Under the pieces are notes generated by a model. It saw only the letters and a program-made list of their open reading frames with translations. It did no database searches and was not told the DNA's origin. Source: Eledone cirrhosa (lineage: Eukaryota). From it: a stretch of DNA of 64,000 nucleotides. Below, piece by piece: positions 15,151-60,674 of this stretch (positions are counted from its first letter, which is position 1; each line of letters begins with the position of its first letter). Both the position numbers and the translations under genes were made by a program. Location of the stretch: positions 297,600,001 to 297,664,000 of the forward strand of contig OZ024740.1 of assembly GCA_964016885.1 (NCBI GenBank). The letters are read 5' to 3'.

Positions 15151-15338
15151 TCAGCACGGGATACCGTTGTCACACCGGGTTAGTGTCTGGTTCCAGCTGG
15201 TACCATCTGGACAAGTCATAGAGACTAGGCCTCCGTTGGCACATGTGTAGAAACGTTCGCATCTGGCGTCGTCTTCGTAGAATCCCGGTTGACACTGGAA
15301 ACATCTGCTCATATTTGGGTAGAAACACATCTCCGTCC
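15151..15338 (-). CDS. Terminal exon, chitin-binding type-2-like domain 3 ([61 protein letters not shown])
   Basis: cag acceptor at 15339-15341, phase 1, TGA stop at 15151-15153. Confidence 0.88.
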
Positions 15339-60300: not shown

Positions 60301-60674
60301 TTATTACCACTTGGCCACAGAGAAAATGGTATGTTATAAATATTTATATTATACACAAACCTATATAGAAATGCTTAAAATTACTCTAATTTGCATATCC
60401 GTGGTTTAATTGATAGTAACATTATACAAAGTTAAATGACTAAGATGAATCTATAAAGTTGTGCTTTTAGTTAATACATTTTTAGACTTTTATGCGAAAT
60501 AGACTCACCAACTTATGAATGATATATTGAAATAAATAAAGACTATCTTACTTTTGCAGGTCCGAGAATTTGGAAGGAGGAAATAACCCAGTTTGCATTC
60601 GCAGACATATGAACCAATTTTATTGACGCATAACTGGTTGCATCCATGTAAAGGCGTTTCACATTCGTTTACGT
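15151..60674 (-). CDS. Multi-exon gene (5'-incomplete): probable extracellular protein with >=11 tandem EGF/cbEGF repeats followed by 3 chitin-binding type-2 (CBM14/peritrophin-A)-like domains
   Basis: 15 exons, each with a yAG acceptor and (except the last) a GT donor, all junctions phase 1, joining into one open frame of 1934 nt that ends at TGA 15151-15153. Exons are listed separately. Confidence 0.85.
15818..16100 (+). mobile_element. Second tRNA-derived SINE family (V/Meta-SINE-like body); other copies at 52990-53218 (-) and 52435-52505 (-)
   Basis: tRNA-like head (tggtaagggtgttggact...ttcgattcc), tgtgttcttgag..acttcatttcacgttgctccag, gcttc...gaaaccgggataagcaccgg. Confidence 0.75.
16599..16634 (-). 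CDS. Candidate 36-nt Pro-rich linker micro-exon ([12 protein letters not shown])
   Basis: tttcag acceptor, gtaagt donor, phase 1-1, stop-free, lies between CBD exons 2 and 3. Confidence 0.65.
17123..17172 (-). ncRNA. Type-I hammerhead ribozyme
   Basis: gagcugua CUGAUGA a GGGU gau ACCC a GAAACA uuag UGUC^ ugcaguuc; all three stems pair. Confidence 0.85.
17938..17992 (+). ncRNA. Type-I hammerhead ribozyme; inverted copy at about 17780-17834 has GAAA>GAGA
   Basis: acugc CUGAAGA GGUcACAGCC uaagau GGCUGUcACC GAAAUauauAUA^ gcagu. Confidence 0.82.
18262..18732. repeat. Minisatellite (TA)n-CATGTAAA, about 20 units
   Basis: Direct reading. Confidence 0.9.
19752..19937 (+). mobile_element. SINE copy
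   Basis: Box A/B and core motif. Confidence 0.9.
20026..20205 (-). CDS. Chitin-binding type-2-like exon 2 ([59 protein letters not shown])
   Basis: 180 nt, tag/gtatg, phase 1-1; same motif. Confidence 0.9.
21245..21295 (+). ncRNA. Hammerhead-like motif with CAGAAGA core; copies at 28518-28568 (+), 34898-34948 (+), about 28057-28107 (-) and about 34777-34827 (-)
   Basis: aguuu CAGAAGA uCCCguuaaGGGu GAAAGCAgcgauucuuUGCUU^ aaacu; stems I-III pair. Confidence 0.7.
23232..23395 (-). mobile_element. SINE copy
   Basis: Box B and core motif. Confidence 0.88.
24358..24534 (-). CDS. Chitin-binding type-2-like exon 1 ([58 protein letters not shown])
   Basis: 177 nt, cag/gtaag, phase 1-1; FYQC...CPxGTxW...C motif; absent from the ORF track. 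Confidence 0.88.
26076..26110 (+). ncRNA. Minimal hammerhead motif
   Basis: CUGAGGA aGGGC uuau GCCC GAAACGUC^; stem I is weak. Confidence 0.55.
27054..27098 (+). ncRNA. Minimal type-I hammerhead ribozyme
   Basis: aacggug CUGAUGA uAGCUaacaAGCUu GAAACuaGUA^ caucguu; palindromic stem III ACUAGU. Confidence 0.85.
28700..30093. repeat. Near-identical 616-bp tandem repeat (about 2.3 units) embedded in (TA)n
   Basis: Unit start ttttaaatcgtatgg at 28700, 29316 and 29932. Confidence 0.92.
30728..31600 (+). mobile_element. RTE-clade LINE 3' fragment (RT C-terminus with PHD-like Cys cluster), degenerate
   Basis: [60 protein letters not shown]; stops and frameshifts. Confidence 0.88.
31600..32260 (+). 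mobile_element. Penelope-like element RT/linker fragment
   Basis: [43 protein letters not shown]; in-frame stops. Confidence 0.85.
33185..33643 (+). mobile_element. Head-to-tail SINE array (one truncated plus two full copies)
   Basis: Identical junction gaaacaattattatttgtggattggc occurs twice. Confidence 0.9.
33810..34570 (+). mobile_element. Penelope-like element GIY-YIG endonuclease fragment with 3' terminal repeat containing a hammerhead
   Basis: [15 protein letters not shown]...[13 protein letters not shown]; hammerhead at 34501-34538; ends in (TA)n. Confidence 0.85.
34501..34538 (+). ncRNA. Minimal hammerhead ribozyme; same family at 41914-41954
   Basis: cgag CUGAGGA uCCgcuaaGGu GAAACAAUUGUU^ cucg; palindromic stem III. 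Confidence 0.75.
34970..35560 (+). mobile_element. RTE-like LINE 5' UTR with a degenerate endonuclease start; related pieces at 39500-40120 and 42340-42820 (partly inverted)
   Basis: Shared blocks ggtgctactggtaacatg...ggcaacccc and ctaggagaagg; degenerate VAVL.ETRL-like peptide. Confidence 0.55.
35696..35766 (+). ncRNA. Type-I hammerhead ribozyme; second copy at 40819-40889
   Basis: uauuuuau CUGACGA a..CAAAUGUCAUC gcau GAUGAUAUUUG..u GAAAUgcgcAUA^ auaaaaua. Confidence 0.85.
36045..36170 (-). CDS. cbEGF exon ([42 protein letters not shown])
   Basis: 126 nt, cag/gtaag. Confidence 0.92.
36240..36606 (+). mobile_element. Mariner transposon 5' fragment (TIR and HTH N-terminus)
   Basis: TA-(c)gagggtaagt TIR-like start; [22 protein letters not shown]...[13 protein letters not shown]. 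Confidence 0.75.
36812..36934 (-). CDS. cbEGF exon ([41 protein letters not shown])
   Basis: 123 nt, cag/gtaag. Confidence 0.92.
37488..37561 (+). ncRNA. Type-I hammerhead ribozyme with long stem II; inverted copy at about 37292-37362
   Basis: gcugu CUGAUGA uGUcACGACACU...AGUGUCGUcACu GAAAUauauAUC^ acagc. Confidence 0.82.
37730..38235 (+). mobile_element. Penelope-like (Neptune-type) RT thumb/linker fragment
   Basis: [20 protein letters not shown].., [20 protein letters not shown], spread across frameshifts. Confidence 0.75.
38803..38893. repeat. 18-bp minisatellite gagagatttagtaatctg, about 5 copies
   Basis: Direct reading. Confidence 0.9.
39191..39313 (-). CDS. cbEGF exon ([41 protein letters not shown])
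   Basis: 123 nt, cag/gtaag. Confidence 0.92.
40965..41045. ncRNA. Back-to-back inverted minimal hammerhead cores
   Basis: CUGAUGAuUUCcuucGAAuGAAACaGUU on + (from about 41007) and its mirror on - (about 40972-41000). Confidence 0.6.
41160..41450 (-). mobile_element. 3' end of an RLE-type (R4/Dong-like) non-LTR retrotransposon
   Basis: IPIIIGATG...[18 protein letters not shown]-terminal motif; abuts (CA)n. Confidence 0.7.
45426..45545 (-). CDS. cbEGF exon ([40 protein letters not shown])
   Basis: 120 nt, cag/gtaag. Confidence 0.93.
47115..47237 (-). CDS. cbEGF exon ([41 protein letters not shown])
   Basis: 123 nt, cag/gtacg. Confidence 0.92.
48660..48782 (-). CDS. cbEGF exon ([41 protein letters not shown])
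   Basis: 123 nt, cag acceptor, weaker gtttg donor. Confidence 0.9.
48843..49471. mobile_element. Inverted pair of young SINEs (48843-49037 +, 49285-49471 -), each with a TSD
   Basis: TSD attaatttatttacaatacc (48823/49036) and cttaaataatataataat (49270/49472). Confidence 0.92.
50636..50758 (-). CDS. cbEGF exon ([41 protein letters not shown])
   Basis: 123 nt, cag/gtatg. Confidence 0.92.
51571..51890 (+). repeat. 159-bp tandem dimer, each unit carrying a minimal hammerhead (cores at 51642 and 51801)
   Basis: Consensus uuucuu CUGAUGA aGGACuagcGUCC GAAACGUU^ aaga; each copy has private mutations. Confidence 0.75.
52223..52345 (-). CDS. cbEGF exon ([41 protein letters not shown])
   Basis: 123 nt, cag/gtaag. 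Confidence 0.93.
52616..52665 (-). ncRNA. Type-I hammerhead ribozyme (same family as 17123-17172)
   Basis: gaacugua CUGAUGA aGGGUaauACCCa GAAACAuuagUGUC^ ugcaguuc. Confidence 0.85.
53530..55718 (+). mobile_element. 5'-truncated Penelope-like element (linker, GIY-YIG, pLTR with hammerhead)
   Basis: [69 protein letters not shown]; hammerhead at 55478-55520; flanked by (TA)n on both sides. Confidence 0.88.
55478..55520 (+). ncRNA. Hammerhead in a PLE pLTR; decayed copy at about 46294-46336
   Basis: guca CUGAAGA gGUCACAgaaugUGUGAC GAAAGaaCUU^ ugac. Confidence 0.75.
56150..56700 (-). mobile_element. 3' end of a CRE-clade non-LTR retrotransposon
   Basis: [19 protein letters not shown]...[15 protein letters not shown], followed by an AT-rich 3' UTR with AATAAA. 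Confidence 0.75.
57417..57539 (-). CDS. cbEGF exon ([41 protein letters not shown])
   Basis: 123 nt, cag/gtaag; not in the ORF track in this frame, translated by hand. Confidence 0.92.
57622..58290 (-). mobile_element. Mariner transposon 3' fragment, degenerate
   Basis: [25 protein letters not shown] (YSPDLAPSD motif); ttaggttg TIR-like end next to (TA)n. Confidence 0.8.
59551..59673 (-). CDS. EGF exon lacking the calcium-binding consensus ([40 protein letters not shown])
   Basis: 123 nt, cag/gtaag, 6 Cys. Confidence 0.92.
60552..60674 (-). CDS. cbEGF exon ([41 protein letters not shown])
   Basis: 123 nt, cag acceptor, gtaag donor, 6-Cys EGF with DxNEC and CxNxxGSYxC. Confidence 0.93.

What the first reader, a model, noticed from the sequence alone, without database searches (positions are those of the whole stretch)
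15151..60674. Unusual architecture: long cbEGF array ending in three chitin-binding modules
Seen: 11 symmetric phase-1 EGF exons (10 with the D-x-N/D-E-C...C-x-N calcium-binding consensus, several with the NGGC signature typical of SCUBE/MEGF/LRP-type repeats) splice in frame to three CBM14-like exons and a stop, with no TM, CUB, TB or ZP domain. Established: cbEGF arrays form Ca-stiffened rods in fibrillin and fibulin, and CBM14 binds chitin. Inference: an exon-shuffled matrix protein that tethers a Ca-dependent rod to chitinous structures such as beak, radula, sucker cuticle or gut lining. I do not recognise this as a named family. The small exons are scattered over 45 kb and about half are missing from the ORF track, so annotation could split or miss the gene.
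Basis: partly seen in the sequence, partly recalled or inferred. Interest (0 to 1): 0.75.

Follow-up and report, generated by a model that had tools for sequence, protein, structure and literature searches.

The report
Octopus EGF rod with chitin-fold tip
This octopus-type gene strings 23 calcium-binding-type EGF repeats between an EMI-like head and three chitin-binding-fold modules, a combination repeated in a second gene of the same genome, and it likely encodes a secreted spacer of the extracellular matrix whose tip is predicted to grip chitin poorly because it lacks the aromatic residue that tested relatives use.

Summary
Observation confirmed. The 11 phase-1 EGF exons and 3 CBM14 exons lie where stated and join in one open frame. 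A paralogue on contig C6 has the same order (8 EGF + 2 modules + stop, last intron 1.9 kb), which supports one gene. No RNA run was available, so the junction is inferred. The modules are a variant: an extra N-terminal cysteine pair in all 16 aligned, the C2/C6 pair only in the two terminal ones. The chitin-tether idea is weakened: 0 of 5 modules of the two EGF genes carry the aromatic residue that binds chitin in CHIT1, against 9 of 11 in a separate neighbour gene that starts at window 6418. The top fold matches, EHEP and Der p 23, do not bind chitin. Verdict: new domain combination of known parts.

The parts
60552..60674 (-). cbEGF exon 13 of 23, the first inside the window. The gene's upstream part lies beyond position 64000: EMI-like exon A (G000:C1:297730251-297730150, phase 2-2), EMI-like exon B (297726455-297726376, phase 2-1) and EGF exons 1-12 (297724603-297667093, all phase 1-1)
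   Evidence: upstream exons
59551..59673 (-). EGF exon 14, the only one of 23 without the N-terminal calcium motif (possible hinge, inferred)
57417..57539 (-). cbEGF exon 15
52223..52345 (-). cbEGF exon 16
50636..50758 (-). cbEGF exon 17
48660..48782 (-). cbEGF exon 18
47115..47237 (-). cbEGF exon 19
45426..45545 (-). cbEGF exon 20
39191..39313 (-). cbEGF exon 21 (His in place of the consensus aromatic)
36812..36934 (-). cbEGF exon 22
36045..36170 (-). cbEGF exon 23, last EGF; donor at 36044
24358..24534 (-). CBM14-fold module 1: extra N-terminal Cys pair, no C2/C6, no aromatic at C5+2
20026..20205 (-). CBM14-fold module 2: same Cys pattern, His at C5+2
15151..15338 (-). CBM14-fold module 3 and stop codon: 8 Cys with C2 and C6 present, Asp at C5+1, Asn at C5+2
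14945..15150 (-). likely 3' UTR: AATAAA 111, 188 and 200 nt after the stop
6324..6418 (-). Separate neighbour gene, first (signal-peptide) exon; its 11 modules lie beyond the window at G000:C1:297580463-297498935

Best explanation
The exons form one open frame (EMI-like head, 23 EGF repeats, three CBM14-fold modules) that likely encodes a secreted matrix spacer: calcium would stiffen the repeats into a rod, the head would bind other matrix proteins, and the tip is predicted to dock on a chitin-protein layer through partner proteins or weak clustered sugar contacts rather than by classical chitin stacking. Shown: exons, frame, domain identities, cysteine and aromatic patterns, paralogue, neighbour gene. 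Inferred: splicing of EGF to module exons (about 0.9), secretion (signal peptide found only for the paralogue, and there only as a candidate), rod stiffness (recalled for cbEGF pairs with a one-residue linker, which is the linker here), partners and tissue. Origin, inferred: an EMI + NGGC-type EGF gene of the MEGF6 kind gained phase 1-1 module exons at its 3' end; the adjacent 11-module gene is the likely donor or a product of the same event, but the module tree does not resolve this.
For: One 1,183-aa frame over 28 exons. 22 of 23 EGF with the N-terminal calcium motif, 18 of 23 with the full consensus. C6 paralogue: candidate signal exon, EMI-like exon B, 8 EGF, 2 modules, stop; 486-aa open model; 0 start-exon candidates in its 1.9-kb last-EGF intron. 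Only 2 of 23 listed EGF clusters have a listed CBM14 within 100 kb, and both have it directly downstream on the same strand. C2 and C6 occur together in 2 of 16 modules (the two terminal ones) and are both absent in 14 of 16, which fits the C2-C6 disulfide and the stop as the true end. AlphaFold models: pLDDT 92.5 and 86.1, best matches all CBM14 folds. Aromatic at C5+2: 0 of 3 here, 0 of 2 in the paralogue, 9 of 11 in the neighbour, 9 of 11 in its O. sinensis orthologue; 695 of 1,193 background cores have one at C5+2 or C5-1. CHIT1 Trp465 (C5+2) and Avr4 Trp100/Asp102 are needed for binding. EHEP and Der p 23, the top two fold matches (Z 6.0-6.4, rmsd 2.1-2.8, 47-56 aligned), do not bind chitin.
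Against: No transcript or orthologous full-length protein was seen. No convincing signal-peptide exon among 20 phase-2 candidates in 134 kb upstream. The papers read say chitin-binding residues are not conserved across CBM14, so the missing aromatic does not prove loss of binding; module 3 keeps Asp at C5+1, module 2 has His at C5+2, and all three keep C4-P-x-G and a Trp six places after C4. The five modules are related, so the nominal p values (0.013 against background, 0.005 against the neighbour) overstate the case; the background is the 146 other proteins, which that ranking enriches for many-module proteins. Fold Z-scores under 8 separate CBM14 members poorly. The EMI label rests on motif and intron phase; Pfam EMI did not hit the split exons.
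Confidence: 0.5

Rival explanations
1. Classical chitin tether: the three modules bind chitin fibres directly and anchor the calcium-stiffened rod in beak, radula, sucker cuticle or gut lining.
For: 3 of 3 modules pass the Pfam CBM_14 cut-off and the two modelled fold as CBM14. CHIT1 binds chitin without the C2-C6 disulfide. Binding residues differ among CBM14 members. Three modules in a row could bind by avidity. The gene sits beside a Gly-rich 11-module gene that looks like a structural chitin-matrix protein.
Against: 0 of 5 modules in the two EGF genes have the C5+2 or C5-1 aromatic, against 9 of 11 in the neighbour. Top fold matches are non-binders.
Confidence: 0.27
2. Soluble scavenger or recognition protein: the three-module tip works like Aplysia EHEP (three peritrophin-A domains that bind polyphenols) or binds microbial glycans in mucus or gut, with the EGF rod as a display stalk.
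For: EHEP is the best or second-best fold match of both models and the best PDB sequence match of module 3 (E 4e-6); it also has three such domains and no chitin binding.
Against: Identity to EHEP is 21-22% in the structural alignments; EHEP has long linkers and no EGF; the paralogue has two modules, not three; the Z difference to other CBM14 rows is small.
Confidence: 0.11
3. Two genes: an EMI-EGF gene that ends after exon 23 and a small separate three-module gene that starts inside the 11.5-kb intron.
For: One signal-peptide-like phase-1 exon with a strong donor lies at 26921-26873. A related EMI-like + EGF gene at C6:2.34-2.49 Mb shows no module in 45 kb downstream. The junction has not been seen in a transcript.
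Against: That candidate is part of a dispersed repeat (40 of 40 scored genome matches at 93-100% identity), and 2 phase-1 candidates in 11.5 kb is about the rate seen upstream (20 in 134 kb, thresholds not identical). No internal phase-1 exon candidate in the intron; the one terminal candidate lies in a transposon-like stretch; short terminal exons were not excluded. The paralogue has the same order with a 1.9-kb intron and 0 start candidates.
Confidence: 0.08
4. Read-through giant: module 3 is spliced at a cryptic donor (15165) to the 11 downstream modules, giving 23 EGF + 14 modules.
For: A phase-1 GT at 15164 lies at the position where other modules splice; score 5.5, reached by 4.3% of GT in the region.
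Against: It would cut off C6 and leave C2 unpaired; the paralogue ends the same way; the downstream gene has its own signal-peptide exon at 6418-6324 and an O. sinensis orthologue without EGF.
Confidence: 0.04

Closest known systems
MEGF6 (EGFL3)-type proteins
   Same: EMI head followed by NGGC-type EGF/cbEGF repeats (MEGF6 layout recalled). The head's second exon has the same phase 2-1 borders and CC-x-G-W motif as a Pfam-EMI exon at C4:62.26 Mb (weak hit, under the cut-off) that precedes NGGC EGF exons.
   Different: 23 EGF of this type, then CBM14-fold modules and a stop; the C4 locus is the likelier true MEGF6 (label recalled, its 3' part not checked).
Fibrillin / fibulin / LTBP cbEGF arrays
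   Same: Long tandem cbEGF with one-residue linkers; automatic annotation would likely call it 'fibrillin-like' (names).
   Different: No TB domain or fibulin C-terminal domain in the model; best identities to the 273 proteins then held are 40-47%, generic EGF level.
CBM14 / peritrophin-A domain (CHIT1 ChBD, Avr4, tachycitin, Der p 23, EHEP)
   Same: Same fold and C1-C3, C4-C5 core.
   Different: Extra N-terminal pair C-x(7-9)-C ending three places before C1 in 16 of 16 modules; C2/C6 only in terminal modules; no aromatic at C5+2 or C5-1 in this gene.
Octopus sinensis LOC118763360 (XP_036358737.1) and Argonauta hians GAB1598772.1
   Same: Same extended module; orthologues of the neighbour gene, 70-93% identical in best-matching modules for the O. 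sinensis protein.
   Different: Signal peptide + 11 modules + Gly-rich tract, no EGF; uncharacterised; keeps Tyr/Phe at C5+2 in 9 of 11.
Molluscan Pif / BMSP / LamG3 and EGF-ZP shell matrix proteins
   Same: Secreted mosaics that join chitin-binding or EGF domains to protein-interaction domains (passages of 10.1101/2021.07.10.451900 and PMC11291548).
   Different: Those use VWA or LamG with CBM14, or EGF with ZP; none of the passages seen joins EGF to CBM14.

Membership tests
Calcium-binding EGF domain (PF07645) | Six Cys, D-x-[DN]-E-C start and C-x-[DN]-x4-[FY]-x-C motif; Pfam cut-off | tested here: met
   23 of 23 with six Cys, 22 of 23 start motif, 18 of 23 both; 10 of 11 window exons over the cut-off
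Calcium-binding EGF domain (PF07645) | Binds calcium and stiffens | not testable with these tools
   bench test needed
CBM14 / peritrophin-A (PF01607) | Profile match and beta-sandwich fold with C1-C3 and C4-C5 | tested here: met
   3 of 3 over cut-off; models of modules 1 and 3 match CBM14 structures
CBM14 / peritrophin-A (PF01607) | Six-Cys pattern including C2-C6 | tested here: not met
   absent in modules 1 and 2, present in module 3; CHIT1 and Der p 23 also share only the two core disulfides, so not required for the fold
Chitin-binding CBM14 of the CHIT1/Avr4 kind | Exposed aromatic at C5+2 (Trp465) or C5-1 (Trp100) | tested here: not met
   0 of 3; positions
Chitin-binding CBM14 of the CHIT1/Avr4 kind | Measured chitin binding | not testable with these tools
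   bench test needed
EMI domain (PF07546) | Pfam profile match | tested here: inconclusive
   no hit for either exon alone; the domain is split in two exons and was scanned only in pieces
EMI domain (PF07546) | N-terminal Cys-rich domain ending CC-x-G-aromatic-x(n)-C, two exons of phase 2-2 and 2-1 split in an Arg codon | tested here: met
   against Pfam-EMI exons at C5, C4 and C1:328 Mb
MEGF6 | C-terminal run of non-calcium (laminin/NIM-type) EGF repeats (feature recalled) | tested here: not met
   the model ends in three CBM14-fold modules and a stop
Fibrillin / LTBP | TB (8-Cys) domains between cbEGF runs | tested here: not met
   no further convincing phase 1-1 coding exon among the candidates between the EGF exons; one 200-N gap in an intron
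SCUBE | Cys-rich repeats and C-terminal CUB (feature recalled) | tested here: not met
   stop after module 3; only sub-threshold NCD3G hits (E 0.05-0.06) on the C-x2-C part of modules 1 and 2
Pif / BMSP / matrilin | VWA domain | tested here: inconclusive
   none in the 1,183-aa model, but the exon(s) upstream of the EMI-like head were not identified

The most novel reading that the evidence does not exclude
An octopod (perhaps coleoid) family of secreted EMI-cbEGF rods of set length (8 and 23 repeats) tipped by a new eight/six-cysteine CBM14 subtype that has given up chitin stacking and instead recognises the Tyr-bearing, Gly-rich product of the gene next door, so that the two adjacent genes form a dedicated two-part anchor that joins soft tissue to chitinous hard parts.
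Probability: 0.15. Interest if true: 0.7.

Novelty: new variant of a known kind. Interest (0 to 1): 0.42.

Why it matters
How soft epithelia hold on to chitinous beak, radula or sucker cuticle in cephalopods is little described at the protein level (own knowledge). A two-member family of length-graded cbEGF spacers with CBM14-fold tips, beside an 11-module Gly-rich gene, gives concrete candidates and a built-in test: modules of one subtype with and without the chitin-stacking aromatic. It is also a clean case of phase 1-1 exon shuffling, and a warning that a CBM14 label does not imply chitin binding. The parts are all known and domain shuffling is common in molluscan matrix proteins, so the surprise is moderate.

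Tried and rejected
RNA: no RNA holder listed; the three runs cover the intron evenly and behave as DNA of one sample, so they say nothing on splicing. Orthologue searches: the three window modules found none among 183 candidates; the EMI-like frame found no candidate; the EGF profile listed 120 of 1,995 hits, none with PF01607; 0 of 273 held proteins had both EGF and module hits; all are weak negatives (word index, 2,000-aa limit, ranking by repeat number, 150 of 2,689 shown). Metagenome scan: 2 weak loci, not followed. ESM Atlas gave nothing. Signal-peptide exon: not found; a candidate at C1:297733863 is a tandem repeat without in-frame Met in the stretch shown. The C5 EMI gene was tried as MEGF6 but shows only 1 EGF exon in 170 kb. 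The module tree has 0 of 15 supported branches and is not used. A link of the C18 module to a membrane-anchored sialomucin (hint) was not confirmed. Literature: 8 architecture searches gave 0-6 papers each; in the passages read (PMC13425148, PMC11931252, 10.1101/2021.07.10.451900, PMC11632948, PMC12785369, PMC11291548) none shows EGF and CBM14 in one protein; the other listed papers were seen as listings only, and no supplements were read, where such architectures could be tabulated. The Der p 23 paper was not held; its result is cited through PMC10619976. No complex prediction was run, as no binding partner is claimed.
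Full report
Setting. The window is G000:C1:297600001-297664000 in a 3.0-Gb genome. The neighbour gene matches an Octopus sinensis protein at 70-93% in its best modules, so the animal is an octopod (inference).

Check of the observation. 10 of 11 EGF exons pass the Pfam EGF_CA cut-off and 3 of 3 modules pass CBM_14. 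All internal exons are phase 1-1. The last exon ends at a TGA (15153-15151), with AATAAA 111-200 nt later.

The gene is longer. Profiles built from the window exons and run over 464 kb found 12 more EGF exons upstream, to C1:297724603. Two further exons (phase 2-2 and 2-1) encode an eight-cysteine head ending in CC-x-G-W. Pfam EMI does not hit the pieces, but exons that Pfam does list as EMI elsewhere in this genome have the same motif and the same intron phases, with the split Arg codon seen at C5. I call the head EMI-like. The 28 exons give one frame of 1,183 aa; 22 of 23 EGF have the calcium start motif, 18 of 23 the full consensus, each with one residue between C6 and the next repeat. The first coding exon was not identified.

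One gene or two. The junction is inferred, not seen in a transcript. The indirect case is good. A paralogue at C6:0.59-0.62 Mb has a candidate signal exon, an EMI-like exon B, 8 EGF exons and 2 modules, in one 486-aa frame; its last EGF intron is 1.9 kb and holds 0 start-exon candidates. Of 23 listed EGF clusters only these 2 have a listed CBM14 within 100 kb (both lists are lower bounds). The one strong signal-like exon inside the window's 11.5-kb intron is a dispersed repeat. The 11 modules downstream belong to another gene, whose signal exon is at window 6418-6324 and whose O. sinensis orthologue has no EGF.

The modules. In 16 aligned modules six Cys are invariant: an extra N-terminal pair plus canonical C1, C3, C4, C5. 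C2 and C6 are both present in the 2 terminal modules and both absent in 14, as expected for the C2-C6 disulfide described for EHEP (PMC10619976, passages). This also supports the stop over a cryptic donor at 15165. AlphaFold gives pLDDT 92.5 and 86.1 with the extension ordered; the best structural matches are Der p 23, EHEP, CHIT1, Avr4, Blo t 12 and tachycitin. The disulfide pairs are inferred; the tool gives no coordinates. The extended pattern was found in 5 of the 150 library proteins shown: the two neighbour orthologues, two unnamed membrane sialomucin-like proteins and one module of a fifth protein.

Do they bind chitin. In CHIT1 Trp465, two places after C5, has the largest effect on binding (PMC4844120, PMC5459812, passages). 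In Avr4 Trp100 (C5-1) and Asp102 (C5+1) are essential (PMC6128652, passages). The window's modules have Asp, His and Asn at C5+2 and no aromatic at C5-1; the paralogue likewise has none (0 of 5 in all). The neighbour has Tyr or Phe in 9 of 11, and 695 of 1,193 background cores have an aromatic at one of the two places. EHEP and Der p 23 have the fold and do not bind chitin. Against this reading: the same papers say binding residues vary within the family, the five modules are not independent, and avidity may compensate.

Mechanism. Most likely (0.5) a secreted spacer: a calcium-stiffened rod (about 55 nm from a recalled 2.4 nm per repeat), an EMI-like head for protein contacts (role recalled), and a tip that docks on a chitin-protein layer by partner proteins or weak clustered contacts. 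Rivals: classical chitin tether (0.27), EHEP-like scavenger or recognition protein (0.11), two genes (0.08), read-through into the neighbour (0.04).

Comparison. It works like fibrillin- or fibulin-type cbEGF spacers and shares its head-plus-EGF layout with MEGF6-type genes (a likely MEGF6 lies at C4:62.26 Mb; label recalled). It is not a fibrillin, SCUBE or MEGF6 by their defining C-terminal or TB domains. No protein with EGF and CBM14 together was retrieved, and 8 paper searches showed none; these negatives are weak, and supplements were not read. Four look-ups in this scan's notes found no earlier report of this architecture; one note describes another CBM14 fusion in this genome, unchecked here.

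Verdict. Real, well-formed gene; new combination of known domains with a variant CBM14; two members in this genome; function inferred. Novelty: new variant of a known kind. Interest 0.42.

Noticed in passing
window 6418-6324 (minus) to G000:C1:297498703: Neighbour gene: signal peptide, 11 extended CBM14 modules, short acidic linkers and a long Gly/Ser/Thr repeat exon; orthologues in O. sinensis and Argonauta, uncharacterised; a candidate structural chitin-matrix protein.
   Followed up: partly
G000:C1:297570892-297567319 (L037-L038): The Gly-rich repeat of the neighbour gene changes reading frame near 297568100 (open frames of 969 and 289 aa): intron, assembly slip or real frameshift not resolved.
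   Followed up: no
window 60983-64000 and on into L001 (minus): Long non-LTR retrotransposon copy in the intron between EGF exons 12 and 13, with RVT_1 and zf-RVT hits in separate frames.
   Followed up: partly
window 26860-26960 and 27344-27433: Dispersed repeat, often in tandem units of about 466 bp, that mimics a signal-peptide exon with a strong donor; 40 of 40 scored genome matches at 93-100%.
   Followed up: yes
G000:C6:2335135-2492682 (minus): Third gene with an EMI-like exon of the same subtype and at least 27 listed NGGC-type EGF exons; no CBM14 module found in 45 kb downstream; its end is unknown.
   Followed up: partly
P0087, P0120: Unnamed proteins with the same extended modules, a mucin-like stalk, a membrane helix and a short tail ending in a Tyr motif; P0087 has a weak MGC-24 (CD164-like) hit. 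A third architecture for the module; organism not given.
   Followed up: partly
G000:C18:24698143-24697961 (minus): Single extended module exon with no EGF or second module in 90 kb scanned; host gene unknown.
   Followed up: partly
G000:C6:74.99-75.21 Mb and C3:220.85-220.86 Mb: A cluster of over 20 listed CBM14 exons on C6, and a 1,958-aa open frame on C3 with CBM14 hits repeating about every 945 nt.
   Followed up: no
G000:C1:297688215 and 297808360: Two 200-N assembly gaps; the first lies in the intron between EGF exons 9 and 10, so the repeat count of 23 is a lower bound.
   Followed up: no
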